Assembly: GCF_030144855.1 (NCBI RefSeq)
Contig: NW_026779567.1
Location: 1-64,000, forward strand
Reading direction: 5' to 3'
DNA length: 64,000 nucleotides
Source of the DNA: Hypanus sabinus
Lineage: Eukaryota
Positions within the stretch are counted from its first letter, which is position 1. Each line of letters starts with the position of its first letter. The position numbers and the translations under genes are program-made. The notes below the pieces were generated by a model that saw only the letters and a list, made by a program, of their open reading frames with translations, was not told the origin of the DNA and searched no databases. Positions 36,021 through 62,529 of this stretch are shown piece after piece.

Positions 36021-36454
36021 ATTGCCACAAGAAACACCTTTGGCTTTGGTTAACGAGCGGGTTGTTGATTTACACTGCGCCTGAAAGATTTGAGAAATTT
36101 ATCTTTCTTAACAGACACCCATTCCAAATGGACAGAAAATGTGCAAATGTAAGGAGTGAGAGGTTGTTTGGAAATGGGCGCTATCGAGGGGGTGACGCAC
36201 GACCTTGAGATGGATGTCCTCACTGTTATTGGAGTGGCCATCGGGGAGGGAGAGACAGGGAAACTGACAATCTTCACTGCAGTTAACCTGGCTGTCAGGG
36301 GGGAATGATGGAGTGACTGAAAATTGGAACCAGTCAGGGAGTTATGTGGTAGGGAAAATGGGACCCAGGAAGGGAATGATTTCCAATTTAAAAATATTTA
36401 AGGGAGTGCAGGCCAAAGCGCTGATGACATTCGCAAACTGACAATGATCTACGG

Positions 36455-36735
36455 CAGGAAGAGTGAGTGGAGAAGACAGAGACTGTAGTGAATGGAGAGA
36501 GTTGGGGAGGAAAGAGAAATAGAGACAGAGAGGAGAGAGATTTGAAAAGGAAGAGAGAAAACAGAAATGAGTGGAGATTGGTGAGTGGAAGAGGGAGAGG
36601 GTGGAGGGAAGGAGGAGATAGACGGTGAGAGAGTGAAAGGGAACATGTTGAAGAGGGTGAGTGAAAGTGGGAGAGGGTGGTTACAGGTGGAGGCAGAGAG
36701 AAACAGAAAGCTGGGGGAGAGGGTGCAAGAGATTG
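36455..36735 (+). repeat. GA-rich low-complexity tract
   Basis: Mostly G/A on the + strand. Confidence 0.8.
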
Positions 36736-37234
36736 CGAAACAGTTAGCTTCAAGGAAAGTGTTTGCAGCGTGGGCTACTGAGACCTGGACTGGGCGTAGG
36801 GAACAGTGCAGAGGTACATACAACTCTGTGGGGTGTAGGCAAGGTAAATGCAAGCAGGCTTTTTCCACTTAAGTTGGGTGTCATTGGACCTATAGGTCAT
36901 GGGTTAAGTGTGACATGCAAGCTGAAATATATAAGGTGAATATAAGGGGAAACTCTTCGATCAGAGGGTGGTGAGAGTGGGAACTGATGGAAGTTGGATG
37001 TGGGTTTGACTTCCAATAACGAGATGCAAATGTACGGATTCATAGAGACGTACAACACAGAAACAGACTTCGGCCCATCTATTCTGTGAACAGGACTGCC
37101 TATTCGCATCGACCTGTCCCGGACCACAGCCGTCCATGCCCCTGCCATCCATGTGTCTATCCAACCTTCTCTGAAACGTTGAAAACGAGCTCATTTTCCT
37201 CTTCAGCTTTTCAACGTTCATCCGTCGCCCCTGA

Positions 37235-39470
37235 ACACTACAACACAGTACAGGCCCTTCAGCCCTCCATGGTGTGCCGACCCATATAATCCTTAAACAA
37301 AACAGTAAACCCACACTACCCATAACCCTCCATTTTTCTTTTATCCATATGCCTGTCCAAGAGGCTCTTAAATACCCTTAATGTTTTAGCCTCCACCACC
37401 ATCCCTGGTAATTCATTCCAGGCACATCCTCTGCGGAAAGAAGCTTACCCCTGATGTCTCCCCTAAACTTCCATTTCTTAATTTTTTTACATATGCCCTC
37501 TGGTGTTTGCTATTGGTGCCCTGGGAAACAGGTACTGACTATCCACCCTGTCTATGCCTCTCATAATCTTATAGACCTCTATCAAGTCCCCTCTCATCCT
37601 TCTACACTCCAAAGAGAAAAGTTCCAGCTCTGCTAACATTGCTTCATATGACTTGTTCTCCAATCCAGGCAACATCCTGGTAAATCTCCTCTGCACTCTC
37701 TCCATAGTTTCCACATACTTCCTATAATGAGGTGACCAGAATTGAACACAATAGTCTAAGTGCGGTCTCACCAGAGATTTGTAGAGTTTCAACATGACCA
37801 CTCTACTCTTGAACTCAATCCCCCTGTTGATGAAGCCTAGCAACCCATAGGCCTTCTTAACCGCCCCTATCAACCTGTACAGCGACCTTGAGGGATATAT
37901 GGATTTGAACCCCAAGGTCCCTTTGTTCATCCACACCATTAATCCTGTACTCAGTCTTCTGGTTAGTCCTTCCAAAATGCATCACCTCACACTTGCCCGA
38001 ATTGAATTCCATCTGCCATTTTTTGCCCAACTCTGCAGCCTGTCTATATCCTCTTGTAACCTTCGATCACCTACAGCTCCATCCACAACTCCTCCAATCT
38101 TCGATTCAGCCGCAAACTTACTCATCCATCCTTCCACCTCGACATCCAGGTTATTTATAAAAATCACAAATAGCATGGGTCCCAGGACATATCCCTGCGG
38201 CACTACACTAGTCATCGACCTCCAGGCAGAATACTTTCCTTCCACAACTACACTCTGCTTTCTTCCTTTAAGTCAATTTTTTATCTAAGCAGCCAAGGTT
38301 CTACTTATCCCACGCCTCATGACTTTCTGGATGAGTCTCTCATCAGGGACCTTGTCAAATGCTTTGCTATAGTCCATGTAGACCACAAACACTGTCCTAC
38401 CCTCATCCATTTCTTTTGTTAATCTTCAAAAAATTCAATCAGGCTCGTGAGGCATGATCTTCCTTTCACAAAGCCATGTTGACTATCCATGAGTAGACTG
38501 TACTTCTCCAAATGCTCGTAGATCCTATCCTTAAGAATACTTTCCAGTAGTTTGCAGACCACCGACATAAGACTCACCAGTCTATAGTTCCCAGGTTTCT
38601 CCTTATAACCTTTTTAAACAAGACAACTACTTTTGCCATTTCCAATCTTCTGGCAATTCCCCTGCAGTCAAAGAGGATACAAAGATCATAGCTAATGCTC
38701 CTGCGATCTCTTCTCTTAATTCCCACAACAACCTGGGGTGTATCATATCCGGCCCTGGGGATTTATCAATCTTAATGTTTTTAAGAAGATCCAGCACTAC
38801 TTCTTCCTTAATCTCCACATTGTCCAGCACACAGGCCTGCTCTACTTCGACCTCATCCAGATCAAGATCCTTTTCACTTGTGAATACTGAAGCAAAGTAT
38901 TCACTTAGGACCTCTCCAACCTCGTCCGCCTCCAGGTGCATGTTGTCCATGTTCCCACCTTCGTTCTCGTCATCCTCCTATTCTTCGCATACGCAGAGAA
39001 CGCCTTGGGGTTCTCCTTAATTCTACATGCCAAGGCCTTCTCATGCCCCCTTCGAGCTCTCCTAAGTCCTTTCTTTGGCTCCTGCCTGGCTACCCTATAT
39101 TTCTCATATGCTCCTCCTACTTCCTGTTTCTTATATCTAACATATGCTTCTGTTTTTCTCTTGACGAGTTGCCTCACATGTTTCGTCAGCCACGGTTCCC
39201 TTTTCCTACCATTTTTCCTTGCCTCAGTGGGACAAATCTATCCTGAACCCAGCACAAGTGTTCCCTAAACTTCTCCCACGTTACTTCTGTGCTTTCCCCT
39301 TTGAACATCTGTTTCCAATTTACTCTCGCTAGCTCCTGCCTCATCCCTTCAAAGTTAGCCCTTCCCCAGTTAAGCACTTTACCATTTTGTCTGATTTTAT
39401 CCCTTTCCACACCTATGCTGAAGCTAAGTGAGTTGTGGGCTCTCTCTCCAAAATGCTCCCCCACCAAGAG
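37235..39470 (-). mobile_element. CR1 LINE, ~2.2 kb 3' portion
   Basis: KSPGPDMIHPRLL, VPQGYVLGPMLF, YKSLVRPHLDYCVQFWSPH, RGDLIEVYKIMRG, then 3' UTR. Confidence 0.92.
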
Positions 39471-39529
39471 GTCAAGTCAATATATATCAAGACTACTCAT
39501 TTTAGTCTCGCCCAACCTCGGTGGACAAA

Positions 39530-39740
39530 TCAGCAGATGCTGGAAGTCAAACCAACAGGCACACAATGCAATTCCAATGTGAATTCCACACACTGGAACT
39601 CAACAGGCCAGGTCGCATTTATTGAAAAGAGTGAACATTTCAGGATCAGTCTTGATGAAGGATCTCGGCCCGAAACGTCGACAGCTTACATTGTGCATAG
39701 ATGCTGCCTGGCCTGAGGAGTTCCTCCAGAATTTGGTGTT
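39530..39740. mobile_element. Penelope-derived inverted-repeat element with a hammerhead-like motif
   Basis: Inverted arms; CAGTC TTGATGA A GGATCTCGGCCC GAAACGTC GACAG at 39647-39684. Confidence 0.65.
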
Positions 39741-39789
39741 GCTCAGTGGAAAAATCCTGCTTGCATTTGTCCTATACGTATGCCTCAGT

Positions 39790-42350
39790 ATTTATTATAC
39801 CTCTGTTAAATCCCCCTCTAAGCTTCGAGAATTAAAATGCCAACCTACCCTTCCTTCCTTACAACTCAGGTCCTCCAGATCCGACAAGGTCTTTTGAAAT
39901 TTCCTCTGGACTGCTTCAACCTGATTTATATCCTTCTTGTTAGCAGATGACCAAACCTGCGCACAGTACTCCCAGTCAGGCCTCAATGGCGTCTTATTCA
40001 ACTTCAACATTACGTCCTGTCTCCTGTAATCAGTACTTTGATTTATGAAAGCCAGTACGCAAAAGGCTTTCATTTCAACCCCTATACCTCTGCCAACATT
40101 TAAATGAACTAAGGACCCGTATTGCCAGATCCGTTTGTTCCACCGCACACCCCAGCGTACTGTTCACTGTGTAAATCCTACCCTGGGGGGTCCTACCGAA
40201 ATGCAGCACCTCGCACTTGTCTGCATTAAAATCCATCCACCAGTTGTACAGCTGGTCCAAATCCCACTGGAATTTAATAGACTTCCTTGTTGACCACTGG
40301 ACCCCTAATATTGGAGTCATCCGCAAATGTGCGGATCCAGTTAGCCACATTGTCATCCATATCAATGGTATAGATGTCAAGCAACAGCGGAACCGGCACG
40401 ATCCCTTTGGCACTCCACTAGTCACAGGCCTCCAGTCAGAGAGGCAATTACTTCCTCGCTTCTCCCACAAAGCTAATACTTAATACAATTTACTACCTCT
40501 CATTGAATGCCAAGCCACTGAACTTTATTGACCAGCATCCCATGCGGGACCTTGTCAAATATCTTGATAAAATCCATGCACATAACATCCACTTCTTTGC
40601 CTTCATCAACGTTCCTAGTAAATTGCCCTTAAAAAGCTATCATATTCATTCGACTTGACCTACAGGACGCAAAACTGTTCTGACTATCCGTAATCAGCCC
40701 CTGTCCATGCAAATACTCACAAAGCTGATAGTTTAGAATACCGTCCACTATCTTTCCCACCACTGATGTCAAGCTCACAGCAGCTTTCTTAAACAGCGGA
40801 ACAACATTACACATTACTCATCGACACGATGGGGCAAGTGACCTAATTCTGATCAATTATAGTATGGTCGTGTTCTTGAGTCAGAGAGGGTAATTAAATC
40901 AGCCAGAATGAAATGGCAGTGCCGACTCCATGGGGCAAATTCCTCAAATCTGCCCTTATACCTTATCACCTTATTCGCTATTCTCCAGTTTCCCGTTTCC
41001 TCACCCGCCGCTAATGGTGATTGAAACATTTCTGCTGGAGCCCGAGCAGTTTCTGCATCTGCCTTTTCAGAGGGAGCATCTTGGCAGGACCTGGGAGTTT
41101 GTCAACTGAATTTGCCTCAAGGCAGGAACATGTCCGTCTCTGTGATAAGTATATGGTCAATGAGCTGCTTCGCCTCTTCAGATTCTGCCTCCGTCTCCCG
41201 AATGTGATAACACCCACAGCTCCCGATAACAATTGGCTTCATGCACTGATGACCGTTCAGGATACAAATTTTGTCTCTTGCAATTATTTCGCTTTTTCCT
41301 TTTCTGAAATCCCCTTCGGATTCTAGTCATATCGTCTCCTTGGGCAACCCCGTGTCTTCTTTAACCTTCCTGATCTTTTCTTTAGTGTTCTCTTGCATCT
41401 CCCATACCCCAGAAGTACCTCACTTGTCCCTACCTGCCAATACCTGTTAAGCTACTTCATGTATTTCTTCAATGTCTGCAACAATATCTCTTGAAAAACA
41501 AAGTTCTCTAAACCTGTTACTTTACGTTTTATTCTGACAGGCACATACAAGCTCGCAACTCTCAAAATGTCACTTTTGAAGGCATCGCTTTCGCCAAGTA
41601 CACCACTGCCTGATAACAGCGTGTTGCAAAGCACAGTTCTCAAAGCCTTCTTAGATACCATCAAAATTGGCATTTTGATGCCAATTTTGACCCCACAAGC
41701 CAGACCGTTGCTTAACAATATTTACTTTTAAAATAACGGCATTGTGAACGCTAGGTGTTAAGATTTCGCCTACACAATCTTCTGTCACCAGCCGTGTCTC
41801 AGTATCTAATGAAGGAAACTTTTCTGAACATATTTAACAAACACTATCCAACCTAGGAATTTTGAGCATGGGAGGCCCAGTGAATGTGTGGAAAGTTAAA
41901 ATCAGCTACTTTCACAAAGTTATGTTTCATTATACAATCTGGGATCTCGCTATAAATACGTTCCTCGAAATGGCTCGGACTGCTGGGTGGTCCGTAATAT
42001 AGCCCCAGTAACGTGGTCCGACCTTTTCACCCTTAACGCCTCACTAGAGGAATTCTCCAGTCTGTTCTGATGGAGCACTGCCACGGTATTTTCCCGTGCC
42101 GGTAACGCGACCACTTCTCCTTTAACCACCCCCCCCCCCCTTCGCTCTGTGGTGTCTAAAACAACGGAACCCCGGAATATAGATCTGTCAATCCTGCCCC
42201 TGTCTCTCTAATGGCTACAATATTGTAAAACCTGTCGATTTATGTTCTGACCTTAAATGCCTTTTCTTCAATACTTCTTGCATTGAAATATATGAAGAAC
42301 TGGACATTAATCTCAACATTCTTTACTTCTTGATTCTTGACTTTGCCTGA
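39790..42350 (-). mobile_element. CR1 LINE fragments (two older copies)
   Basis: WRPVTSGVPKGS, FNADKCEVLHFGR, VSLTSVVGKI. Confidence 0.75.
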
Positions 42351-42689
42351 GGGCTTAACATCTGTTTGAGAAACTTGGATATGTACGTGGATGGGAGGGG
42401 TATGGAGAGCAGGTCAGTGGCAATCAGCACAATAATAATTTAACACGGAGACGGGAAGCAGTACACAAATAACCGGTGTGGAATACAGAGACTGAGAATC
42501 GTATGCGGTAAAATTCCCCGCTGTTGGATATGGAGACCAGAACCGCACGCGGTAAAACTCCTGGCCTGGAAACGTAATCCCACGGTGGATTTTGTCAGTG
42601 ACTGTGAACAGACATGATTAATGACATTGCAAATGGGGACTGAATAAATAGTTGGTCTAACAATTCTAATCAGTCACACCATCTACTTG

Positions 42690-42985
42690 CATTTCTCCCT
42701 CACTCCTGACTACTTACACTGTCTCCCTCACCACTCCCTCCTCCCAGTCCCTCTTCATCTTCCGGCCCTCTACTCCAGACTTCCCTTCTTGCTCACTGTC
42801 TCCCTGAACGTCACGCCTCTCCCTAATCCCTTCCTTATCATCGCCTCTCTCAATTATCTGTGCTTCCTCACCGCCTCTCTCTCCCTCCCCCTTCCCTATC
42901 CCTCTCAGTTACACCCCTACTCGACCAGTCTCCCACTCTCTTCCACCCCTGTCCTCGCTCTTTCCTTCTCTCTACTACTCTATCA
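42690..42985 (+). repeat. CT-rich low-complexity tract
   Basis: Pyrimidine-rich run. Confidence 0.75.
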
Positions 42986-43099
42986 TCAACAGCTCAACAG
43001 AGGACGCCATCTCCACGGCACTTCACTCTGCCCTGACCCACCTGGACAACCCCAACTCTCACGTCAGAATGCTTTTCATTGACTTTAGTAGCTGTTTGA

Positions 43100-43535
43100 A
43101 AGCAACAGCAGCCACACCCCGGGCAATGGCTACGACAAGCCGGCTAAACCAGGTGAGGGTAGCCGACGGGTCTCAAACGCGCAGTGAGATAGGGAGTTGT
43201 CTATCCCAGCACGAGAAGACAGACTCCAGCGGATAGAGCGTACGAGACCAATGGAAGGTCTAACGGTCAAAAAGGCGGTCTCTGCAAGCATTGTGGAACG
43301 TGCAGACTAGGACAAGACACAGAAGACATCCTGGTCAACCACTGTGCCTAGTCTCATCTCCGGACGTCTCGACTCTTGTCTTGCCACTAGATCCAGATGG
43401 GAATTGGGAAGTCAGAGTGAGGTTGATGCTGCACAGCTCTCCCTCATTTAAATCCAAATCATGCTCTAGTCTCGACACCATCATCATCATAATGGCATCG
43501 AGGTCTTCATTGACGATGACGATGGACGAACAACA
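43100..43535 (+). mobile_element. RTE-clade-related non-autonomous retroposon fragment
   Basis: GCCGGCTAAACCAGGTGAGGGTAGCCGACGGGTCTCAAAC, GCAGCTCTCCCTCATTTAAATCCAA and the end GGACGAACAAC resemble RTE-derived short elements as I recall them; not verified. Confidence 0.45.
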
Positions 43536-44039
43536 CGTCAGGCTCACTAGCAGCTCTCTGCGGCTTGCAGAGAGACACACTGAGAGTTGATTACATTATA
43601 CATTGTATCCTTGTTTGAATAAAGAGAGGAGGACTCACTGTTAAGGACAGGAATGAACATCTGTCTAGCACCCAATAAGCATTTTACCTTTTGTCTCTCT
43701 CCGTTAGTCGCTTGCCCAAGGCTGATCAAATATCTTGACGGGATTGGGTAGAATCTGTTGGAAGACTCGTATAAGTTAGACAAAATTTTACGAAGTGGAA
43801 AGGAGGCAGTATCAGTTAAATTTTGCTAAATGGGCAGCAGGCGGTACCGGGTAAATTTTATGACGTGGGCAAGAGGCAGATGTGCCAGGTAAATTTATCA
43901 ATTGTGCAGGAGGTTCCAGCCAGGTAAATTTATTAAGTGGGCAGGAAGTGCCAGTCTAGTAAATTTATCCGATTGTTAATTGAGCAGGAGGCTTTGTGCC
44001 GGGTAAAATAGTTAGGGAACATTGGTCAATTGCAGTTGA

Positions 44040-45676
44040 TTGATATGAGTGGGCCAGGAGCAGCCCGACACAATGTGTGAGAGTTTTCCAGAAAAGGAAA
44101 AAGTTTGCAGCGCTGAATAAGAAATTGAGGAACAAAATCTGGCCACTGGGGGGGAACCTGGGATATTACCTCGTGAGAACAAGCAGTAAATTTGATATGG
44201 AAAAAGAACTGTGAACAGAAATGGAAATTGTTGAAAAGGGAATGGAAGGAAAGGCAGATGCAAAGTGGAATAGTATATTATTCGCAAGTTGGTGGAATAA
44301 TGCATGTGACGAAGTGATAGAGGTACGTACTGCAGAAAGAACGCCAAAGGTTGGGAGAGGCTAACAGCGGAACGTGAACGGGTGGATGGGCGCCGAAAAC
44401 AAGAGCAGGAAAAAACAATATAAACAAACCAAAGCCATTCTAGATAAGACAGCAGGGCTGGAAAGTCAGTTTGAAGTTTGAACTGATAGGGAAACAAGGG
44501 ATCCTGAACCCATATCTGGCTGTCCTGACGAAGGGTCTCGGCCTGAAATGTCAACAGTGCCTCTCCCAATAGATGCTGCCTGGCCTGTTGTGTTCCACCA
44601 GCATTTTGTGTGTGTTGCTTGAATTTCCAGCATCTGCAGATTTCCTCGTGTCTGGCATCCCAACACTGTTTGAGGACAGTGACCATGATGAGGAGTGGGC
44701 ACCCACCGTTCTCCTCCACCTTGCCAGTAGCCAAGTGCAGCCAGTGCCCCGAAACATAATCCTCCCAGTACTCAGATACGGTGGCTGCCCGGGTAAAACA
44801 GCGGCATGTCTCTACACCCTGAGATCCAGAAAGGGAATACCAAGGATTATTCCGAGACAGGAAGGGAAGAATCCAAAAAAACTCCAGAGTTAATGGCTCT
44901 ACAAAGACAATTGCCCACCTGAATGCTGCCCAATCCATGAGCAGGAAAAGGAACAGCCCTCAGTGATTCCCGTGTTTGCACCCTGGAAGCCTCAAGAAAT
45001 GATAATGATCATGAATCAGGCCCCAGGTAGAAAAGAAAAACCAACACAGTTTGTTCAGTGTGTCCACAGTACTATACAAATGTGTAATGCCACTCCACAA
45101 GATTTATTCGGTCTCTGCTGCACGATTCTCCCAGCTGATGAGGGGTGGAACTGGAAGGCAGAATTGAGATACCAAACCTATCAGGAGTTACAGACGGGAA
45201 ACCATAATGAGAATGAACAGACAGACCAGATTATTCAAGCCTCCGAAAGGGCTCTCCAGCAACCCGTAAACATCACTAAAATACTTGAATCCAAACCTTA
45301 GCCTGGGGAATCAGGACCATTAGGAGCGACTTAGGGCCTGCTATGGCACTTTCGCAGGAGATCAAGCCTGTCATGGTGGAAATCCGTCCCCCCAGTTTAA
45401 AGCCTTACTGCTCCGATGCTTAACAACTAAGTTAGCCAACGTGATTAAAACAAATAATATGGATTGTGCTGACAATGACCGAAATCGAATGCGATGAGCT
45501 TTGACAAATTATTGGGACCCAACCTTCGAATCCCGATCAATCCTGAAGGGAACTCATACTAAAAGTGAATAGGTTCAGCGGGAAGAAGGACGCGAAGGGG
45601 CTACATCTGGAGATCAGAAATGGGAACAAAAACCCACCAAGGGACCGGTGGGGACAACAGCCCGCTTAGAAATTGA
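44040..45676 (+). pseudogene. gag: ERV gag (disrupted; Penelope fragment inserted at ~44520-44650)
   Basis: Matrix-like WPxGGTW and capsid-like PWKPQEMIMIMNQAP..F..T.QDL; stops and frameshifts. Confidence 0.7.
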
Positions 45677-46030
45677 CAAGCAAGGATGCTTCCAACCATG
45701 AGTATCACCCCTCAGGAAGAGCCCAATGTAGTATTGCAAGTTGCTGGAATTCCAATTCTGTTTCTGATTGATATGGGGGCAACCACAAACACTCTCAATC
45801 AGGAAATGGTATCCGAACAGGGATTCCAGCCATCAGCCACCACAATCCCTCTGTCTGGGTTCGAAGGCACAGAACGTACGTATTCACGTACCCAGCCACT
45901 GCAGGTGGAATTCCGGGGGGATCCGGTGTGAAGTTTCATTTACAGTCACCACCAGTCGGGGGTGTAATCTTCCAGGAAAAAAGCATGCCCTATCCTTTGA
46001 AACAAGAGATTCTGTGCATGGACAAGGGTA
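45677..46030 (+). pseudogene. pro: ERV aspartic protease (degenerate)
   Basis: EPNVVLQVAGIPILFLIDMGATTNTLN...LSGFEG; D-T-G is mutated to D-M-G. Confidence 0.8.
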
Positions 46031-46082
46031 TCACCCTGGAACTAGTGAACAGACGACATCTTCCCCAGTTTCTGACCACCCA

Positions 46083-46380
46083 ATGGTGGCACTTAATCTG
46101 GACTCAACTGCGTTTGCACCCCTTCTGGCAGTGGCCAACTATCATGTGACTCTGTGGTACGACCCTATGGGGTGCACAACTGAGGTAAGCCAATACTATG
46201 CACCCCTCGAGGACCATTAGATATCAGTCACAGTGATAGGAGAGGCTAGAGGAAGAGAGGGCAGTGCATTTCTGGCCAAAGTTCCGGATTTCCTTTGGCG
46301 ACAGAGAGGACTTGTGGTTCCCCATACCACCGTTTGGGTTCGTCCCAGGTTCAAGCCAAAGAGCCTCGGATTCCTCGCTT
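46083..46380 (+). pseudogene. ERV 2H phosphoesterase (CNPase/LigT-like) domain, one in-frame stop
   Basis: One frame reads YHVTLWYD...(TAG 46218-46220)...GREGSAFLAKV...VPHTTVWVRPRFKPKSLG, with two HxT motifs 60 codons apart. Confidence 0.7.
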
Positions 46381-46539
46381 AAACGTTGACAAAACAAGGG
46401 TTGACGAAACAGAACTTCCTAGACTGGGAAACATGCATCCTAGCCAGACTTGCAGGTGCCCAGCAGCGGAGAGGAATAACTGAGACTGAGTGATTTTGGA
46501 AGATCACTTTTCATTCCTGTGGAGTAGCCAGGAATTCAC

Positions 46540-46910
46540 CAGAGATAATCAATTTGGCTACAGCACTTGAGGAGCTGGCCACAATACTGCAGGGGCTCTG
46601 ACAGAAACACAGGCCCAAGTAACAGAAATATCCACTGAAATGATTGCAATCCAGCAAACAGTCGTACAGAATCATTTGGCTTTAGATTTTATCCTCACTG
46701 AGAAAGGGGGAACCTGTGCTATTAGTGACATAGAATGCTGCACTTATATCCCTAATGAGTCTACTAACATTACATCCCTCTCCAAGCACACTGCCAAGGA
46801 GATTGACAGCATCAAGTAAGTAGGGCAGGATTTACATGGGTTCACTGAAGGGTTGAAGACCTGTTAGGTAATATGTCGGGCATGATATTGCATTATGGCT
46901 CAATAGTTGT
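46540..46910 (+). pseudogene. env: ERV env transmembrane subunit fragment
   Basis: EMIAIQQTVVQNHLALDFILTEKGGTCAISDIECCTYIPNES: immunosuppressive domain plus CX6CC. Confidence 0.9.
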
Positions 46911-48944
46911 ACATAATGATCAAAAGGAAGGAATGATAATGTATGTAAAAGGGTTAACACTTTGCTAAGCAGGAGCAGCCTGTTTTTCTGAAAGAAACTG
47001 CTGATGATCAACAGATGTGCTAAGCCATGCTGAGCCGTATTTCTTCTCAATAGGGCTTCAAGATGCTTATCTCCTTGTGTACTCATGCACAGAGATAGGA
47101 CACAGCAGTCTGGTCTGTGTGTGTAAGCCATTATGACTATTTTGTAAATTGTCTTTAGGCGCTGTAAGCCCCGGGTAATTGGAATGAAGAGTTTGTACAT
47201 ATACAGTGTCTGAGTGACTTTATCCGGATTCGACTTCCACAGAATGAGACTGTTTTTAAAGGGCTGGACTGCTGGAAGCACATTACCAGACCTGCAGTGA
47301 TTACAACTGGATCTGACAGAGGCAAAACTGGTTCTGCTGGGCACATTCAGTCTCCCTCCATCTATTCCCTACCTTCCCTTTTACAGGTATGCAATCTCTA
47401 AAGGACCAGTGATTGAGTAAATGAGACTCACGAAACTTTCTCCTGACTGAATCACTGGAATCTCCAAGTCAGATGGGTTCTCTCCAGTTGATGCTCTCAA
47501 TCCTTGGGTTGGTTCACTTGTTGCTGTTCCCTCATCTTCAGTCGTGGTTTCCCACTGCCCGACAGCTTGATCCCCAAGGGCATTTTACTTGGATCTAATA
47601 CTGTGATATCCAACCTCACACAGTCACAGAGCTGCACCTGCCACTTACCCACCCTGAGAGTCTCACACATCATCCCCACGTCTCAGACTGGGGAGTGCAA
47701 TCCGGGATTTCCCCACAACCAATGTCCAGCTTCTCGAGATATCTTCTTCATTGCAGAAGGACAAGCAACCAGCCCCATCTATAGAAACACTAACCAAAGT
47801 CAAAGCCAAAACACCAACAGTTCCATATGCCTGGAATGTCGATCGCAGGATTAGAGCCCAAGCACCAACTCTCCCAGTACTCCTTGCTGCCAGTAAAATG
47901 CTACAGTGTGTCAGCCAGTCACTGTTCATAAACTAGTACCTCCACACCAATGCACAACACAACTGGTACCGGATGACCCTCTGGCATTCCAGCTAACAAA
48001 AACTGATTCTGGAAATAACTCAGCAAGGCCAAAGATGCAAAAGAACTCTTCACAATGAAGACAAAGGTTTAAAAGAAAGATTGCTGATATATAACATTGC
48101 AGAGGTGGGATACAGGGTGGACTGAGGTTGACCCAGATGGTTGATGTATATCACTGAAGTGGGAGTGAGGAGGCTGGACAGAGGTTGAACAAGATGGGCA
48201 GGGAATGAGCAGATGGAACCAGGTGGGAGAAGGGATCAAGGATAATCACTGATGAGCCTTCAGCAATACACAGATACTGAATTAACAGCATACACTACCA
48301 TATAGAAGATTCTAAAATGACCAAGTTAGAACAAACAACAAGAACTTTGCCATATATACTTTGATCCTCACCACATTTTTATCAACAAACCATAGCAACT
48401 TTCCTATCTAGACAGTTCAAGTTTTGCATGGTAACTGCTCTGCTCGTGACTGTGAGGAACTGCAGAGACCTTTGGATACAGATCAGCACATCACAGAAAC
48501 CATTCTCCCCCCTAGGCCTCCCAGTCCCTAGGTAAAGCAGGCAGTGAAATCAAAGATCCCCACAACCTGGGACGTTCTTCCTTCTCTCCCACCACAATTG
48601 GGGAGAAACAACAGCCATAAAGCTGAAGGAAGCGAGGGGAGTTGAGGGAAGTTAACGGGACTCAATGGCCAACATCAGATGTCCCAACAAAACTCAGAGG
48701 AAGCATCACCACTCATCCGGGGACAGTACGAACACACCACGTGATCTTGCACCAGATCTGCAGTAAGAAGCCTCAAGTGACCTGCTGACGGGACTTCCTT
48801 TTCAATTCTGTGGAAATAGACAGCCCGGACTCCTGGTTTGGATCATTGAATGCAGATGAAGAGAAGTCTACACATTTTTGACGAGCCCGGGTAACTGGGT
48901 ACTAAATGAGTAATTGGCCCTCAGTTCGGGACTCACGGCCAACA

Positions 48945-49180
48945 ACAGATCTCCTCGCTCCAGATTGGTCTCAATACTCACCGATGGGAAATTGATGTCT
49001 TTTGCCCGCAGACAGTGATCCCGACCAAGGAGGTGAGGACACTTTCCCGATCCAATAAAATAATCTACTTCAGCACTGACCAGAAAGGAAAACACCACCA
49101 ATCCAGAGGCAGTGATCATGCGCAAAGAGATTGTTACATCTGCGATTAAATGGGAGGGGAAATGGGATCACGTCTACCAT
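48945..49180 (-). promoter_or_regulatory. Decayed copy of the promoter/first-exon module
   Basis: TACTCACCGA.GGGAAATTG.TG..CCCGCAGA matches 52413-52450; retains the donor gtgagt, CATGCGC and GGGATCACGT. Confidence 0.5.
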
Positions 49181-49448
49181 CACCCGACAGAGCACTCCAG
49201 CTACCCAGAACTCTGTGGAAAGAAACAAAGTTGCCCCTCACATTCCCTCTCACCTTAATTGTAACAGACATTTCAACCCCCAAGAAAAACATAACATCTG
49301 TCTATCTATTCCTCTCATAATCTTATAAATGTCCAACCAGTCTCACCACAGCCTGTGCTGCTCTGGAGAAAGCAACACGTTTGTCCAACCTCTCGTTATA
49401 GTTCATGCCCTCTAATCTAGACATTCTCCTGTAAACCTCTTTTACACC

Positions 49449-49601
49449 CTCTACTATTATTATGACATTTCACATTCTTAAAATAGTGACCCTAACTAAC
49501 CTAAGACAGGGAATGTTTTCCAGGATTAAATGTCAGGAATTGTGAAAAACTGAGTTTAAATGTAATTGGCTACAGTGTGTGTAAACTTCAGACTTCAACT
49601 G
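49449..49601 (+). mobile_element. Right IR/DR end of a Sleeping Beauty/salmonid-type Tc1 element
   Basis: CCTAAGACAGGGAAT..GGATTAAATGTCAGGAATTGTGAAAAA.TGAGTTTAAATGTA.TTGGCTA..GTGT.TGTAAACTTC.GACTTCAACTG followed by TA. Confidence 0.85.
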
Positions 49602-49603
49602 TA

Positions 49604-50090
49604 GCCATTAACATGAAAAAGAAAATTTGCCAGTGTATCAAGCAGATAATTGGCAAATTTTCTGTTCTCATTGATGAATCAACAAGCATTAAGACCGCCC
49701 TAATAGTTTATTTGAATTGTGAAAGTGATAAGGCAGGTGATCCCCATTTTATGTTTTTAGATCTAATTGAATTGCCTGATCAGAAAGCTGCAAGTATTGC
49801 TAAGCATCGATTGATCTGTCTCAATAACCATGGGTTGATGACTGATACCTGTCGCTTTTGCTAGTGATGAGGTGAGCGTAATGCTTGGTGTCAAATCTGG
49901 TGTTGCTACAACTCTCAAGGAACATTACCCTGATGTGACGATTTGGCACTGTCTTAGTCACAGATTAGAACCTGCAGGAGATTATTCAGTGAGAGAAGTT
50001 CACAGAAAATAAAAATCATTTTTAAACATCTACAGACAAATTGTACTCTGTTTACAGTAGATTACCTCTGAACTGTCTGAATGTGCCTCT
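49604..50090 (+). mobile_element. hAT transposase fragment (ZNF862/KIAA1586-like type)
   Basis: FSVLIDEST...FLDLIEL...; then in another frame FASDEVSVMLGVKSGVATTLK...IWHCLSHRLE (CxxH). Confidence 0.8.
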
Positions 50091-50239
50091 CAGAATCAGA
50101 ATCAGGTTTATTATCACCAGCATGTGTCATGAAATGTGTTAACTTTGCAGCAGCAGTTCAATGCAAAGCATAATACAGAAGAGAACGCAAAATAAAACAA
50201 TAAAAATAAACAGCTAAATCAGTTACAGTATACGTATAT

Positions 50240-51200
50240 CTGGGACACTTGCTCATCGTTATTTTTATAAATTACCTAGATGAGGAAGTGAGGAATGGTT
50301 AGTAAATCTGCTGACGACACAAAGGTTGGGGGTGTTGTGGACAGTGTTGAGGGCTGTCAGAGTTTACAGCAGGGCTGAGAACTGGCAAATGGAGTTCAAC
50401 CCAGTTAAATGAAAAGTGATTCATTTTGTTAAGTCAAACATGATAGCAGAATATAGCATCAATGGTAAGACTTGGCAGTGCAGAGGATCAGAGGGATCTT
50501 GGGGTCTGAGTCCATAGGACACTCAAAGCTGCTACGCAGGTTGACACTGTGGTTAAGGCGATATACAGTGTGTCAACCTTCATCAATTGTGGGATAGAAT
50601 TCAGGAGCTGAGAGGTAAAGTGGCAACTATATAGGACCTTTGTCACACCCCACTGTGCTCAGTTCTGGTCGCCTCACTACAGGAATGATGTGGAAGCCTT
50701 AGAAAGGGTGCAGAGATTTACAAGGATGTTGCCTGGATTGGGGAGCATGCCTGATGGAAAAATGTTGAGTAAACTCGACCTTTTCTCCTTGGAGCAACAG
50801 AGGATGAGAGGTGACCTGTCAGAAGTGCATAAGATAATGAGTGGTAATGATCGTGTGGAAATTCAAGGGCTTTTTCCCAGGGCTGAAATTGTTGCCACAA
50901 GAGGGCACGGGTTTGAGGTGTTGGGGAGTAGGTACAGAGGGATGTCAGGGACAAGTCTTTTACTCAGAGAGTGGTGAGTGTGTGGAATGGGCTGCCGGCA
51001 ACGGTGGTGGAGGCGGATATGATAGGGTCTTTTAAGAGACTTTTGGATAGGTACCTGGAGACATCAGAGAAAAAAGGAGAAAAACTGGCTTAGAAAACTA
51101 GAGGGCTATTGGTAACCTTAGAAATTTCCAAGGTCAGGACATGTCGGCACAACTTTGTGGGCCAAAGTGCCTGTATTGTGCTGTAGGTTTTCTATGTTTC
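50240..51200 (+). mobile_element. CR1 LINE 3' portion
   Basis: SADDTKVGG, LERVQRFTRMLPGL, RMRGDLSEVHKIM, then 3' tail TTCTATGTT. Confidence 0.88.
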
Positions 51201-51429
51201 GGTGAATAGATTAAAATCATGCAAGAAACAGAAAAACTATATATTTTAAAAGTGAGGTAGTGTTTAGGGGTTCAATGCCCATTTAGCTATTGGATGGCAG
51301 AGGAGAAGAAACTGTTCCTGTATCACTGAGTGTGTGCCTTCAAGCTTCTGTACCTCTCTATCTGATAGTAACATTGACAAAAGGGCAAACCCTGGGTGCT
51401 GGAGGGCCTTAATAATGGACGCTGCCTTT

Positions 51430-52020
51430 CTCATCCTCTGGTAATCTTATAAACGTCTATCCAGTCTCACCCCTGCCGGCACGGCTCCAGAGAAAACTAA
51501 ACAATTTTGTCCAACCTCTCGTTATATCTCATGCCCTCTAATCCAGGCAATATCCTGGTAAACCTCTTCCACATCCTCTCCAAAGCCCCGACATCCTTCC
51601 GAAAATGAGGGCACTCTAGGTGTGGTCTAACTAGTTTTATAAAGCTGCAAAACAACTTCCCGACTTTTGAACTCAATGCTTCAACTAATAAAGACAACCA
51701 CGCCATTTGCCTTCTTAACCACCGGATCAATCTGTGCAGTCTCTTTCAGGGAGCGATGAACTTGGAGTCTGAGATCCCTCTGATCATCAACACTGTTCAG
51801 GGTTTTGCATTTAACAGGGTAGTGTCTTATACATTCGACCTACCGAGCTGCCGAGATGATCATCACTGATCAAATCTCAGTGAGATTTCTCAGATCCTGC
51901 TGAATTTGATGTCAAGTGCACGTACGGAGAAACACTGACTTGTAGTAGCATCACAAGCAAGAACATTCAGATAACACAGGGAACATAAATCATGTAATTC
52001 TCTGTCAGTAACAATATAGA
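51430..52020 (-). repeat. Inverted paralog of 1090-1485 + 2481-2670 (CR1 fragment plus unique flank)
   Basis: Reverse complement shares the CR1 junction and the flank (TTACTGACAGAGAAT, GTGTTATCTGAATGT, CTCGGTAGGTCGAATGTAT, AAATGCAAAACCCTGAACAGTGTTGA). Confidence 0.85.
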
Positions 52021-52379
52021 AACATGTTTTACGTCCTCCTGCTAATTGGACCAGAACAACAGGAGCTGAGCGGCGGCTCATCTCAGACGGTTCGGTGTGA
52101 AGGTCTCACAACCCGGACCGACCCCGGCAGATTCTGTGAAGGAAGCGAGGCGAGGCCGCCAGTTCGGGAAGGTTCATCCCCTCCCCCTTCAGGTTTCACC
52201 GATCGCCTTGTGCTTCTCTCCGCCTCCCAGTACCTTTTATTCTCCAGTCCTGCCGAAGGGTTTCGGCCGGTAACGTTGACTGTACTCTTTTCCTAGCTGT
52301 TACCCGGCTGGCTGAGTTCCTCCAGCATTTTGTGCCCGTTGCTCGCATTTCCCGCATCAGCAGATTTACTCACTACCCA

Positions 52380-52700
52380 CCGTCAGACCCCTCCGCTCGG
52401 GACCGGCTTCAGTACTCACCGAAGGGAAATTGCTGGTGTTGCCCCGCAGAGAATAATCCGTCCCGGCTCGCCGCCCCAGGAGGGAAGACCCCTCCCGATC
52501 CCGATCCCGATCCCGATCCCTCCGCCGACTCGCTTCCACAAAGGACGAAAAAACACAGAGCCAATCCCGGACTGAGCATGCGCGATGTGTATAACGCGTC
52601 ATCGGGTGGTGGGCGGGGCCTCGGAAACAAACCAGCTGGTGCTGCCGATCCGCGGTAAAACGGGATCACGTGACTTTATGTCTCCCACGTGACCCTATCT
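52380..52700 (-). promoter_or_regulatory. CpG-island promoter and first-exon-like module
   Basis: NRF1-like TGAGCATGCGCG at 52573, GC box GGGCGGGG at 52611, two CACGTGAC E-boxes (52667, 52686), minus-strand donor G|gtgagta at 52420, and (CCCGAT)4. Confidence 0.6.
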
Positions 52701-54129
52701 CTGCTTCTCAGTCCTCACACGCTGCCCGACCCACTGCCACATTTCTCACATTATTTCTCTATATTATTTTCATATTTACACCAGATACGTATTTAGTTTT
52801 TCTCTCCATATTTCCCCGATCCCTTTCCCTCCACCCCCAGGTCACAGAGGTCTCAGAGTTAGAGTTTCGATTCCCATCCGGGTCAAACACACAATTCAGA
52901 CCCACACAGGAAATGTGCAGGTTTCACTTAAATCAGTCTATGTTTATAAACACTAATTACTGTTCACATTCCTCTGGTCTCACTGGACAGGAACACTGAA
53001 ACATCAAGTGAGAAACAGGTGGGCCATTCCGCCCCTCTAACCCTCAACAAGCTGGCGGCTGGTCTCCCGTCTCAGTCACATGTTTCTGCGCGATCCTCAT
53101 TTCCTCGATCTCTTAGGTCTCCACACATCTGCCGGCCTCTGTTTTATGTGAGGACGATCACTGAGTCTTAAGCGCCCTCTGCGGTGGGGATTTACAGACA
53201 TTTACCACCCTCAGAGTGGAGACATTTCCCCTCATCTCAGTCCCGGTCAGTCCACCACAATTTTAAGAGACTGGGATCCCTGGTTCAACCGGTAATGATG
53301 TTGTGCTTTTCAACGTGTTCACCTCTCAGTCTTCGATTTTCTAAAACAAATCATTCTTCATATGATTATCCACCACTCCAGGGGTCAGTCTGGTGAATCT
53401 TCATTGCACTCTCTATAACAAATACTGTCTGAACACTTTGCTAATCCTCTATGGAATTAATTTCCATCTTCTGCAGCCCCGTGTTGCCTCAACCACTCCA
53501 TTTTGTTCTTTGGTCTGTATAACCCGTGCTAGTATGGGCAGAGGGATTTTACACCCTATTCCAGGCACAATCTCAACAAATCTCAAATAGTTGTCACTTT
53601 GCCCGGACCACTGGCCCCGCTTGCAGGGCAACAGTCTGCCAGAGTTTGCCCTCCATTGTGGTGAATCCCTTTGCTCGCCACCACCTTCTGCTGAGACATT
53701 TCCACAGATGAGCCCCTCCTGTCCCCACCGGGACAAACATCATGTCCGCCCCCTCTCACACCAGCTTCATCCTTTCAATTAAATACCCCTCTCGCTCCCT
53801 TCCCGGGGAACCGGCATCAAACTGACGGGCCGAGCGGTCTCCTCCTACCTCTCAGTGATACATCAGACTCCGGCCGCAGGAGACGCGTCACAAACGCCCC
53901 CAACTTCCCTCGGAAATGGAAATAAATCAGAAAGCGGCCATTTACTTTGGTATTTGTTCCGCCCTGACGGGAGATCGATGCTTGAGCAGGAAACGGTTTC
54001 AGCGGGGTAACGCCCTCTCGGCTTGTCCATCTTCGTTACTGGTTGTGACCAGTGATTGACATCGCTTCGCACCAATGGGAAAAGTGCAGCCCCTGAAGCT
54101 TTGGTTTTCCGCGGTGGGGGAGGGGTGGT

Positions 54130-54290
54130 CACGGGATGGGTAGCTCAGCCGTTAAACCGATAAAGCTCGAGCTCTCCAGCGCGTGGGTGACGTAAGACAC
54201 CACGCACGCGAGGGCAAGTCCCGGGGTGGGGAACCCACGTGTGACGTAAGGCGCGTGGATTCGCCTGTGTGACGTCACCTGTGGGGGAAG
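54130..54290. promoter_or_regulatory. CpG-rich cluster of three CRE/ATF sites
   Basis: TGACGTAA at 54188 and 54242, TGACGTCA at 54270, CACGTG at 54236. Confidence 0.45.
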
Positions 54291-54749
54291 TCTTGTAATT
54301 AAAAGCACCTTAATGGACGTTTCTGATGATTCCAGTGGGACAGCAACATTAATCACGGGTTTCATCACTGAATCCAGTGTTGTGAGATGTAAAGTCCCCT
54401 GTTATGTGTCCGGCTGTGCCGTGTTGTTGGTGGAGTGGGCAGCGTGGTGTTTGTCTCGATTCGGGTCACAACACCAGAATTGCCAGCGGGGTCCACACAC
54501 ACTGTATTAGTCAACAGAAAACCTCTCGTCCCTGCAGTCTTTGTCCCCCGGTAAACTCAACATCCGGACACTGTGGACCATAGATACCCCTTCCTCCCAG
54601 AGTCAGGGAATCACTCAGACAGCTGATCGCTGAGAGGAATTATATTTATTGGTCATTAAAGTTCCCCCAGATTCGTTTGGACGGATTTGATGTGGAGTTC
54701 AGGGTGTCACAGTGAAAGGGCCGGACGGCCGAACTCTCTCCGTGCTCCA

Positions 54750-55650
54750 AACATCCTTCCAGGTGAGGCGACATTTTACCTGTGAATCTTCCGGGGTCGC
54801 CCGTTGTGTACACTGCTCCCGATGCGGCCGCCTCTACACTGGTTACACCAACGCCTCTGCAGTTGTGCAGGGTAGGATTGTTTTTTGTGGGGGGGGGGGT
54901 GGATCGATGTTATTGTTCCCTTTTGTGCGGGAAGGTTGGGGTTTGGGGGTTGATGATCGGGATGGCGTTCTTGTTGATGTGGGGGGTGGGGTGGGAGTTT
55001 GATTTTTCTCTCTGAAAGACTCATGCTCTTTCTTTGTTTTGTGGTTCTCTGGAGAAAAATAAACGCAAGATAGATTGTTTTGATACAAGTTTGATAATAA
55101 ATTGAACTATCCGCTCCCAGCGGGACTTCCCGGTGTCCAAACATTTTCATTCCGATTCCCATTACCGTTCCCGTTCCGACGTGTTAACCCATCGCCTCCT
55201 CTTGTGCCAGTTTAAGGCCACCCTCAGCGTCCAGGATCTGCACCTTATATTCCGTATGGGTAGCCCTCCCCAAACCTGATGGCACGAATATCGATTTCTC
55301 CTTCCGGTGAACAAATCTCCCTCCCTCCCACTCCCTCTCTTCCTCTCTGACTTTTCACGTCCTCTCACGTGCTTAGCACGTCTGTCTGGGTCCACTGCTC
55401 CTATTCTCCACTCTCCTCTCCTAATGGATTCAATTTTCTTCTGCACTTGAGCTTTCCCATCTACCTGGCTTCACCTGTCACCATCCTGCCAGCCGTTTCC
55501 TCGATGTTATTGAGATATTTCCCTCATTCCATCTCAGTCCTGAAGGAGGGTTCAATTAGAAACGTCGACTATTGACTCTTTTCGATAGATGCTGCTGAGT
55601 TCCGCCTGCATTTTGTGTGATTTCCAGCATCTGCAGATTTTGCCGTGTTT
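54750..55650 (+). mobile_element. Penelope-like element 3' part (GIY-YIG), degraded
   Basis: SFQVRRHFTCESSGVARCVHCSRCGRLYTGYT; later FPVSKHFHS..HLIFRMG; terminus with a decayed hammerhead motif at ~55535-55572. Confidence 0.75.
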
Positions 55651-56059
55651 GTGAATTACCTCTCAGTTGGAGGGGTTGGGTGGAAGAGTGGATATGGCCG
55701 GTGCAGAGAGATCAACCGCACAGAGCCTCGACGTTGATTTTTTTCTCTTCGTTCCTGAATCGGAACTTCCCATCTTTGAGCTGGAAAGATGTCTATGAGA
55801 TTCCGATCTGCACCACAGTCGATGGGTGAAAAGGAAACTGACAGCATTACACAACGAGGAAGCTGACTGCAGAGAGAACCAATCCGTCAGGATTCCCCTC
55901 CCTGCTGACGGGTATTCTCTTTTTTCAGAACGCTTGGAACATGCGCCCGGAATTGTCCTGATCACCACAATAGAGTCAGGAAACCTTTCTCCTGCTCCAC
56001 TCTGATTCCTCTTGAGACAGGCACACGCGCTCTACTTGCATAAGGCCCTCCATGGACTA

Positions 56060-56436: not shown

Positions 56437-56462
56437 ATATATATATATATATATATATATAT
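56437..56462 (+). repeat. (AT)n microsatellite
   Basis: About 13 AT units. Confidence 0.95.
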
Positions 56463-56635
56463 TGGCCCGAGTGCGGAGCAAGAGACACTGAAGCAGGTCG
56501 ATAGTTCACACACTTTATTGCGAACAGAGTTAGAGAAAAGAATAAACGCTACGCCAAACAGGGCCATTAACTAAAATTATCAAAAGGAAAATGAAGCCTA
56601 CAGTGTGGTTGAAAGGAATAACTTAATGTAAAATG

Positions 56636-62527: not shown

Positions 62528-62529
62528 GT

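What the first reader, a model, noticed from the sequence alone, without database searches (positions are those of the whole stretch)
46083..46380. Endogenous retrovirus carries a 2H phosphoesterase domain right after the protease
Seen: two in-frame motifs, YHVTL (His at 46143) and PHTTV (His at 46323), followed by PKSLG and split only by one TAG, so the ORF track misses them. Known: paired HxT/S motifs define the 2H phosphoesterase superfamily (CNPase, LigT, coronavirus NS2, rotavirus VP3 C-terminus), and such a domain has been noted between protease and RT in some teleost epsilon-like retroviruses. Inference: a chondrichthyan ERV lineage encodes a cyclic- or 2'-5'-nucleotide phosphodiesterase, possibly countering nucleotide-messenger immunity (2-5A, cGAMP) or processing tRNA primer ends. 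RT and integrase were deleted while this domain stayed.
Basis: partly seen in the sequence, partly recalled or inferred. Interest (0 to 1): 0.75.

Follow-up and report, generated by a model that had tools for sequence, protein, structure and literature searches.

The report
Dead retroviral CNPase domain, duplicated passenger
A broken endogenous retrovirus, likely of a shark or ray, carries right after its protease a two-histidine enzyme domain predicted to fold like the host enzyme CNPase; such domains are already known from fish retroviruses, and this copy is a decayed fragment that was multiplied along with the surrounding host DNA.

Summary
The motifs are real: His at 46143 and 46323, one TAG between them. 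A stop-free sister copy (66% identical) folds with pLDDT 88. It matches vertebrate CNPase (Z 13.8-14.2) far better than viral 2-5A or cGAMP phosphodiesterases (Z 5.3-7.0).

The domain lies between protease and RT in intact skate Pol proteins and in 29 of 33 RT-bearing ERV loci examined in this genome. In three such families it shows purifying selection (dN/dS 0.38-0.58).

'Domain stayed while RT was lost' shows no selection. The window copy is frameshifted, stopped and truncated. Its family shares host flanks, lacks LTR pairs, sits beside zinc-finger arrays and drifts near neutrally (0.83, interval 0.66-1.03): it is a passenger of segmental duplications. An older in-frame deletion removed only the RT core (present in 0 of 20 copies); RNase H (18) and integrase (16) remain.

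Fish-retroviral 2H/CNPase domains are already published, and this scan noted them in five other windows. The most likely activity is opening 2',3'-cyclic phosphates; this is untested.

The parts
43539..44079 (+). 5' non-coding part of the provirus (probable end of the 5' LTR and leader, with an AATAAA and a 35-bp tandem repeat); similarity to sister copies begins at 43539
   Evidence: blastn to sister loci, tandem repeat 43783-43969; LTR identity inferred, no LTR pair found
44080..45676 (+). gag remnant with stops and frameshifts, interrupted by a ~127-bp insertion at 44522-44648; ends at TGA 45674-45676, in frame with pro-pol
   Evidence: Pfam Gag_p24 E=0.0089 on 44894-45298; insertion absent from sisters; a stop at this place in all 15 sister copies matched by the pattern, of 20 examined (14 TGA, 1 TAA)
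45677..46075 (+). retroviral aspartic protease remnant (active-site Asp codon at 45770, reading D-M-G), broken by frameshifts
   Evidence: Pfam Asp_protease_2 E=3.7e-5, RVP E=0.011; three-frame reading
46076..46397 (+). CNPase-like 2H phosphoesterase domain, pseudogenised: H-V-T at 46143, H-T-T at 46323, frameshift near its start, TAG 46218-46220, TAA 46380-46382, C-terminal ~35 residues deleted
   Evidence: fold of sister copy L024
46398..46404 (+). deletion junction joining the 2H domain to env; about 1.9-3.3 kb of the sister copies (end of 2H, RT N-terminus, RNase H, integrase, start of env) is missing
   Evidence: blastn to L026, L028, L033, L034
46404..46915 (+). env remnant: gamma-type transmembrane subunit with a QNHLALD immunosuppressive-domain-like stretch and CX6CC
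   Evidence: Pfam TLV_coat E=5.3e-4 on 46571-46816; motif visible (motif names recalled)
46916..47550 (+). 3' non-coding part shared with sister copies (possible polypurine tract and 3' LTR remnant)
   Evidence: blastn 80-92% to sisters; no matching 5' repeat found
47563..54212 (+). host flank shared collinearly with other copies (79-93% identity), showing that the copies are segmental duplicates
33022..62691 (+). 29.7-kb block 99.0% identical to G000:C205 over the whole stretch fetched (recent duplicate or uncollapsed haplotype)

Best explanation
The segment is the broken remnant of a two-histidine phosphoesterase domain, predicted to fold like CNPase, lying right after the protease of an endogenous retrovirus; in working relatives it likely opens 2',3'-cyclic phosphates, while this copy likely survives only as a passenger of host segmental duplications. 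Shown: the motifs, the protease-2H-RT order in RT-bearing relatives, the lesions, the shared host flanks, near-neutral drift in this family and purifying selection in three RT-bearing families. Inferred working model for the ancestral virus: Gag-Pol is made by read-through of the gag stop, the protease cuts the ~145-residue domain out, and it is packaged with RT. There the two His-x-Thr motifs would hydrolyse 2',3'-cyclic phosphate to 2'-phosphate without metal, as CNPase does. This would heal nuclease-cut RNA ends (primer tRNA or genome) by freeing a 3'-OH, or remove 2',3'-cyclic nucleotides. Inferred history of this locus: an ancestor lost the RT core by an in-frame deletion, lay antisense to a C2H2 zinc-finger gene, and was duplicated with it many times. 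A later sub-lineage gained the frameshift, the TAG and further deletions and was duplicated again.
For: Fold: pLDDT 88, pTM 0.80. CNPase Z 13.8, 141 of 146 residues aligned, next family 7.2. CNPase 13.5-14.2, goldfish RICH 12.3, fungal RNA kinase (6u05) 11.9, rotavirus VP3 PDE at most 7.0. All 41 Foldseek PDB rows shown are CNPase, RICH or 6u05. The model has a helix (96-107) right after the second motif's strand and loop, where CNPase has its distinctive helix alpha7 (PMC4643303, passages; my reading of the element order, not a residue-level superposition). Family E's first motif reads LHCT, like host CNPase. Pfam 2H families are hit below cut-off by homologs: Acb1 10 of 25 members, 2_5_RNA_ligase2 3, LigT_PEase 2. 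Order: P0007 has RVP 15-107, 2H ~130-250, RVT_1 342-508, RNase H, rve; a 2H lies upstream of RT in 29 of 33 RT-bearing loci. Selection (kappa-corrected dN/dS, codon bootstrap): families C 0.58 (0.43-0.77), D 0.50 (0.36-0.72), E 0.38 (0.27-0.54), against RT 0.69 (C) and 0.57 (D); window family A 0.83 (0.66-1.03), with flat divergence by codon position. Duplication: no LTR pair in 20 of 20 9.9-kb loci or 7 of 7 30-kb stretches of family A. By contrast, distant direct repeats of 92-98% identity were seen in 8 of 16 RT-bearing 9.9-kb loci (7 of 8 from family E). Shared flanks; C2H2 motifs on the opposite strand 5-13 kb upstream in 6 of 7 stretches. RT core in 0 of 20 copies, RNase H 18, integrase 16.
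Against: No enzyme activity was tested, and a shared fold shows no substrate. There is no significant sequence-level match to host CNPase (hhalign probability 0.8%; no CNPase hit). The fold of the divergent family E failed (pLDDT 43), so the CNPase match rests on one model. That model is of sister copy L024, not of the window's own truncated product. Family A integrase gives dN/dS 0.69 (0.58-0.85), below 1, and without the kappa correction family A 2H gave 0.62 (0.49-0.78), so some selection early in family A is not excluded. The family A copies were picked by protein similarity, many for long open frames, which biases toward intact ones. Pairwise dN/dS ignores shared ancestry. The host has an expanded OAS cluster, so 2-5A exists as a possible substrate. 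No protease cleavage site was tested.
Confidence: 0.7

Rival explanations
1. The retroviral 2H domain is an antagonist of nucleotide-messenger immunity: it cleaves 2-5A or 2'3'-cGAMP in the infected cell or inside the particle, like coronavirus NS2, rotavirus VP3-CTD, Acb1 or poxvirus cGAMP PDE.
For: It belongs to the same superfamily. The best Pfam hits of homologs include Acb1 (E down to 7.8e-4). Host OAS genes are expanded: the same exon was hit at 7 places on C31 and 1 on C2157. PMC9503650 (passages) lists 2-5A antagonism as a proposed role of RNA-virus 2H domains.
Against: The structure is much closer to CNPase (Z 13.8) than to VP3 (6.5-7.0), Acb1 (6.1), NS2 (5.9) or penguinpox cGAMP PDE (5.3). 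The Acb1 Pfam scores are far below cut-off and in several members cover one motif only. A Pol-embedded enzyme is made in small amounts (established knowledge).
Confidence: 0.15
2. The domain works mainly without catalysis, as a captured copy of a host restriction factor: it competes with or decoys host CNPase at Gag assembly sites.
For: Host CNPase inhibits assembly of primate lentiviruses by binding Gag (PMC5434554, passage). The viral domain is CNPase-like. The best viral fold matches are proteins labelled envelope polyprotein of WEHV1 and WDSV, so the domain may occur outside Pol.
Against: The most conserved columns across five ERV families are the catalytic Thr, Pro-His and neighbours, which points to retained catalysis. 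No binding was tested.
Confidence: 0.07
3. Family A was a helper-dependent, RT-less retroelement that kept an open Gag-protease-2H-RNase H-integrase polyprotein and spread by retrotransposition in trans, with the 2H domain kept by selection.
For: The RT deletion is in frame at one junction (QYPL...FY..G.S readable in one frame in L022, L024, L027, L028, L033, L036). Integrase dN/dS is 0.69, interval below 1. At least 150 matches were scored of 752 candidates. Both motifs are intact in 11 of 18 copies.
Against: The copies share kilobases of non-viral flank and a neighbouring zinc-finger array and have no LTR pairs. 2H dN/dS does not differ from 1. Motif residues (14-16 of 18) are about as conserved as an average column (0.83). 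99 of 150 matches hold a stop (hand count). A short RT-less phase before the duplications remains possible.
Confidence: 0.08

Closest known systems
CNPase-encoding epsilon-like ERVs of ray-finned fish (Basta et al. 2009, not held; as summarised in PMC4977317, passage) and the 2H domain of walleye dermal sarcoma virus (Mazumder et al. 2002, not held; as cited in PMC9503650, passages)
   Same: A class I fish-type retrovirus carrying a 2H/CNPase-like domain; the top viral fold matches are WEHV1 (E 4e-7) and WDSV (E 6e-5) proteins.
   Different: The host here is likely a cartilaginous fish. The WDSV and WEHV1 matches are labelled envelope polyprotein (the matched region is not given), whereas here the domain is in Pol. 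This copy is a pseudogene in an RT-deleted, segmentally duplicated family. I could not read where Basta et al. place the domain.
Vertebrate CNPase catalytic domain (PDB 2xmi, 1woj; Pfam PF05881), goldfish RICH (2i3e), fungal RNA kinase entry 6u05
   Same: Fold over 141 of 146 residues, Z 13.8-14.2, rmsd 2.3-3.3; two H-x-T motifs; helix after the second motif; LHCT motif in family E.
   Different: About 145 versus ~210 residues; motif spacing 60-61 (CNPase H230-H309 is 79); 12-14% identity and no significant profile match; no N-terminal PNK-like domain; activity untested.
Viral 2H immune antagonists: rotavirus VP3-CTD, MHV NS2, phage Acb1, penguinpox cGAMP PDE
   Same: 2H fold, paired HxT motifs, small size, viral setting.
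   Different: Z only 5.3-7.0 with 102-111 residues aligned, below the level the tool calls distinctive.

Membership tests
2H phosphoesterase superfamily | Two H-x-T/S motifs, conserved | tested here: met
   Window His 46143 and 46323. Both motifs intact in 11 of 18 family A copies; in C 3 of 7, D 7 of 8 and E 6 of 8 copies with all four sites aligned (of 9, 10 and 8 hit); and in 8 of 14 database proteins by pattern, plus P0008 with a variant second motif.
2H phosphoesterase superfamily | Two-lobed 2H fold | tested here: met
   AF2 model of sister copy L024, pLDDT 88; the top 14 rows of the wide structural search are 2H proteins.
2H phosphoesterase superfamily | Intact, translatable domain at this locus | tested here: not met
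   Frameshift, TAG, TAA and C-terminal deletion: the window copy is a pseudogene of a member.
CNPase/RICH clade of 2H enzymes | Closest structural neighbour is the CNPase catalytic domain | tested here: met
   Z 13.8 versus 7.2; 13.5-14.2; Foldseek E 4e-5. One model only; the second fold failed.
CNPase/RICH clade of 2H enzymes | beta5-alpha7 loop and helix alpha7 after the second motif | tested here: inconclusive
   The model has strand 83-88, a loop, then helix 96-107, matching the description in PMC4643303; no residue-level superposition was available.
CNPase/RICH clade of 2H enzymes | Sequence match to PF05881 or host CNPase | tested here: inconclusive
   No PF05881 hit among 25 members; hhalign 0.8% against one host exon with a shallow profile; LHCT motif shared by family E and host CNPase.
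CNPase/RICH clade of 2H enzymes | Hydrolysis of 2',3'-cyclic phosphate to 2'-phosphate | not testable with these tools
   Needs an enzyme assay.
Viral 2-5A / cGAMP phosphodiesterases (VP3, NS2, Acb1, poxvirus PDE) | Closest structural kinship to these enzymes | tested here: not met
   All are listed and score Z 5.3-7.0, about 7 below CNPase.
Viral 2-5A / cGAMP phosphodiesterases (VP3, NS2, Acb1, poxvirus PDE) | Cleavage of 2',5'-linked or cyclic oligonucleotides | not testable with these tools
   Needs an enzyme assay.
Class I (gamma/epsilon-like) ERV | MLV-like RT/RNase H | tested here: met
   For the intact homolog P0007 the best solved matches are p80 RT/RNase H chains (E 5e-136), against 2e-53 for the foamy-type Pol chains. 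The window family itself has no RT core.
Class I (gamma/epsilon-like) ERV | Gamma-type TM (CX6CC) and in-frame gag-pol stop | tested here: met
   CAISDIECC and TLV_coat hit; in-frame stop before the protease in 15 of 20 sister copies matched.
Class I (gamma/epsilon-like) ERV | Placement with epsilonretroviruses on an RT tree | not tested
   No reference WDSV or SSSV sequences were available from the tools.
Independently inserted proviruses (family A) | Paired LTRs and unrelated flanks at each copy | tested here: not met
   No LTR pair in 20 loci and 7 extended stretches; flanks are shared.

The most novel reading that the evidence does not exclude
Aquatic class I retroviruses captured the catalytic domain of host CNPase early and have kept it under purifying selection across at least five ERV families in this genome. 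They would package it with RT as a dedicated RNA end-healing enzyme that rescues nuclease-cut primer tRNAs or genomes, an accessory step of reverse transcription never described for retroviruses. An in-frame RT-less derivative keeping 2H, RNase H and integrase then seeded a zinc-finger/NLR duplicon.
Probability: 0.2. Interest if true: 0.7.

Novelty: new member of a known kind. Interest (0 to 1): 0.3.

Why it matters
The locus itself is a dead fragment. The domain class is published but, as far as my searches found, untested. Three results sharpen the question: the fold points to CNPase rather than to 2-5A or cGAMP nucleases; the domain was under purifying selection as strong as RT in three RT-bearing families; and naturally open versions exist in public databases, so an in vitro substrate test is direct. 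The analysis also shows that copy number and apparent 'retention' of an ERV domain can come entirely from host segmental duplication.

Tried and rejected
- Pfam scan of the window product and of 14 family A copies: no 2H family, only a spurious yeast killer toxin hit.
- Word-index protein searches with P0001 and with alignment A2 found nothing; with the P0007 region, only two skate proteins.
- ESM Atlas: no hit of 0.9 or more.
- PDB sequence searches found no 2H protein.
- hhalign to a host CNPase exon was not significant.
- The fold of family E failed at pLDDT 43 and was not searched.
- Uncorrected Nei-Gojobori dN/dS suggested selection in family A. I set it aside because transition bias (kappa about 3) inflates dS; the corrected value and the shifted-frame controls are.
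- The motif count for families C and D had a bug (the first motif was counted twice) and was redone.
- RNase L: the PF06479 search gave two hits. One is IRE1 and the other looks alike by eye; absence of RNase L is not shown.
- That teleosts lack OAS is recalled only; the passages seen in PMC6307210 did not state it, so I do not use it.
- The 2H tree (16 rows, because one of 17 was lost to a duplicate name) leaves relations among the families open.
- The blastn search for an RT-bearing parent of family A found only 64-76% patches, so no parent was identified.
- LTR boundaries of family A could not be fixed.
- Mazumder 2002 and Basta 2009 are not held.
- Literature searches for a functional test or a shark/ray report of the domain listed none. 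The library lacks most subscription papers. No supplements were read; those of ERV surveys could list the domain.

Full report
1. Observation. Reading 46083-46380 with X at stops gives 99 residues with YHVTL and PHTTV in one frame, then PKSLG, and one TAG at codon 46. The His codons are at 46143 and 46323. Upstream lie a gag remnant (Gag_p24 E 0.0089) and a protease (Asp_protease_2 E 3.7e-5), and downstream an env TM remnant (TLV_coat E 5.3e-4). The motif pair is the only such pair in the window's six frames; shuffles gave 0.14 on average and at most 1. The copy is more broken than reported. The ATG at 46083 comes from a frameshift, two more frameshifts separate it from the protease, a TAA follows at 46380, and a deletion at 46398-46404 removes the domain's last ~35 residues and joins it to env.

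2. It is a 2H domain of the CNPase type. Pfam does not recognise the window product or 14 close copies. A profile of those 14 found 9 proteins among 1.84 billion. The four clusters with names are from Leucoraja, Amblyraja, Mobula and Scyliorhinus; the host of this window is therefore likely a cartilaginous fish (inference). P0007 is an unbroken protease-2H-RT-RNase H-integrase protein, with an MLV-type RT as its best solved relative. In a 25-member alignment of five ERV families and database proteins, the two Thr, the Pro before the second His and a few neighbours are the most conserved columns. Some members hit Acb1, 2_5_RNA_ligase2 and LigT_PEase below cut-off. A natural stop-free sister copy (L024, 66% identical to the window product) folded with pLDDT 88. 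Against 48,161 representative chains the best match is mouse CNPase (Z 13.8, 141 residues). Next come a bacterial CPDase 7.2, rotavirus VP3 6.5-6.7, Acb1 6.1, MHV ns2 5.9 and penguinpox cGAMP PDE 5.3. The second look ranks CNPase 13.5-14.2, RICH 12.3, 6u05 11.9 and VP3 at most 7.0. The top viral matches are WEHV1 and WDSV proteins labelled envelope polyprotein and an unnamed entry. Against this reading: there is no significant sequence match to host CNPase, and the fold of the divergent family E failed, so the CNPase assignment rests on one model, with the LHCT motif shared by family E and host CNPase as a hint.

3. Relatives in the same genome. Searching with an RT piece gave 150 scored matches. 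I examined the top 25 and 8 more chosen for long open frames; 29 of these 33 have a 2H upstream of RT, falling into families I call B, C, D and E. The four without it match only from the RT start onward. With correction for transition bias, 2H dN/dS is 0.58 (0.43-0.77) in C (9 copies), 0.50 (0.36-0.72) in D (10) and 0.38 (0.27-0.54) in E (8). RT gives 0.69 in C and 0.57 in D, and the +1 and +2 frames give 0.88-1.78. The domain was therefore functional in replicating viruses.

4. The window's own family (A) is a passenger. The search with the window product scored 150 of 752 candidates; 99 of the 150 hold a stop (hand count). I fetched 20 copies chosen for spread and long frames. None has the RT core, 18 keep RNase H and 16 keep integrase. 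The RT N-terminus runs in frame into RNase H at one junction in at least six copies. No LTR pair was found in these 20 loci or in 7 of them extended to 30 kb, whereas 8 of 16 RT-bearing 9.9-kb loci show distant direct repeats of 92-98% identity. Instead the copies share kilobases of collinear host flank on both sides, and 6 of 7 have C2H2 zinc-finger motifs on the opposite strand 5-13 kb upstream. The window is 99.0% identical to contig C205 over 29.7 kb and 96.8% to C828 over 19.5 kb, and shares 5-6 kb of downstream flank at about 91% with four other close copies; some near-identical contigs may be uncollapsed haplotypes. All 18 closest copies share the TAG although they differ by up to 27% in protein, so the broken form was multiplied. 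Family A 2H dN/dS is 0.83 (0.66-1.03), with nearly flat divergence by codon position (0.139, 0.149, 0.160). Caveats: integrase gives 0.69 (0.58-0.85), the uncorrected 2H value was 0.62, copy choice favoured intact ones, and pairwise counts ignore ancestry. A brief RT-less, helper-dependent phase before the duplications is not excluded.

5. Mechanism. Shown: position, conservation, selection in RT-bearing families. Predicted: the fold. Inferred: read-through of the gag stop (in-frame stop in 15 of 20 copies matched), release by the protease and packaging with RT. CNPase hydrolyses 2',3'-cyclic monophosphates to 2'-monophosphates (PMC4643303, abstract start and passages) and can replace the cyclic phosphodiesterase of yeast tRNA ligase (PMC5434554, passages). 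I therefore commit to cyclic-phosphate opening on RNA ends or nucleotides as the likeliest job (about 0.7). The 2-5A/cGAMP rival (0.15) stays open: the host has an expanded OAS cluster, and the RNase L search was inconclusive. A non-catalytic decoy role (0.07) draws on host CNPase blocking lentivirus assembly through Gag.

6. What is known. PMC9503650 (passages) states that 2H domains occur in certain retroviruses, naming fish retrovirus and WDSV and citing Mazumder 2002. PMC4977317 (passages) states that epsilon-like ERVs of ray-finned fish occasionally encode a CNPase, citing Basta 2009. Neither primary paper was held. PMC4422223 (first 10,000 of 14,366 characters) reports epsilon-like ERVs in elephant shark and does not mention this domain in the part read. 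PMC6001957 (passages) places epsilon-like viruses in nearly all jawed vertebrates; PMC8672886 (passages) has no occurrence of CNPase; PMC6307210 (passages) lists an elephant shark OAS. Searches listed no functional test and no shark or ray report. Five earlier notes of this scan describe the same domain in other genomes; I had reached the CNPase reading before looking, and they are not independent support.

7. Verdict. The feature is real, a new member of a known kind, and dead at this locus. The additions here are the selection contrast between RT-bearing families and the duplicated family, the in-frame RT-only deletion and the zinc-finger duplicon setting. Interest 0.3.

Noticed in passing
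window 8703-10487 (-): NLR-type gene piece: NACHT (E 1.7e-37), NOD2 winged helix and NLRC4 HD2, split by one in-frame stop near 9657. With the zinc-finger arrays this recalls the NLR/ZNF-rich arm of zebrafish chromosome 4 (recalled; one search gave a listing only).
   Followed up: no
window 1-105 (-) and L109 (G000:C700:64001-73900): End of a degenerate C2H2 zinc-finger array at the window's start and two C2H2 motifs beyond the window's end; window 1-2681 matches, inverted, DNA downstream of another family A copy.
   Followed up: partly
L021-L040 (e.g. L022:4746, L036:4675): Family A carries one in-frame deletion that fuses the RT N-terminus directly to RNase H, removing about 440 codons of the polymerase and connection region while keeping RNase H and integrase.
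   Followed up: yes
L057, L058, L062, L064, L076, L079: Several family D copies have their own internal deletions, jumping from about the YxDD region of RT to RNase H or integrase.
   Followed up: no
G000:C31:79.65-79.86 Mb (L110-L112): Tandem cluster of at least seven OAS genes, several nearly identical in score, so a recent expansion.
   Followed up: no
P0009 (Amblyraja radiata XP_032872110.1): A predicted protein that fuses an ERV 2H-RT piece to a long C2H2 array; probably a gene-model artefact, but it suggests that such ERVs also sit beside zinc-finger genes in skates.
   Followed up: no
BFVD matches Q9WHI8, A4GTG3, Q2VF30_1: The best viral fold matches are labelled envelope polyproteins of WEHV1 and WDSV, so the domain may occupy different polyproteins in different fish retroviruses; Q2VF30_1 has no name in the tool.
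   Followed up: no
window 59727-60212 (+), 62711-63208 (+), 2589-3077 (-), 49505-50012 (+): Other mobile-element remnants: an RT-RNase H connection domain, a Tc1-like transposase, an RT fragment, and a stretch that looks by eye like an hAT transposase without a Pfam hit.
   Followed up: no
window 32407-32740, 6966-7397, 43783-43969: Tandem repeats: three 112-bp units (95% match), a 32-bp purine-rich array, and a 35-bp array in the ERV leader.
   Followed up: no
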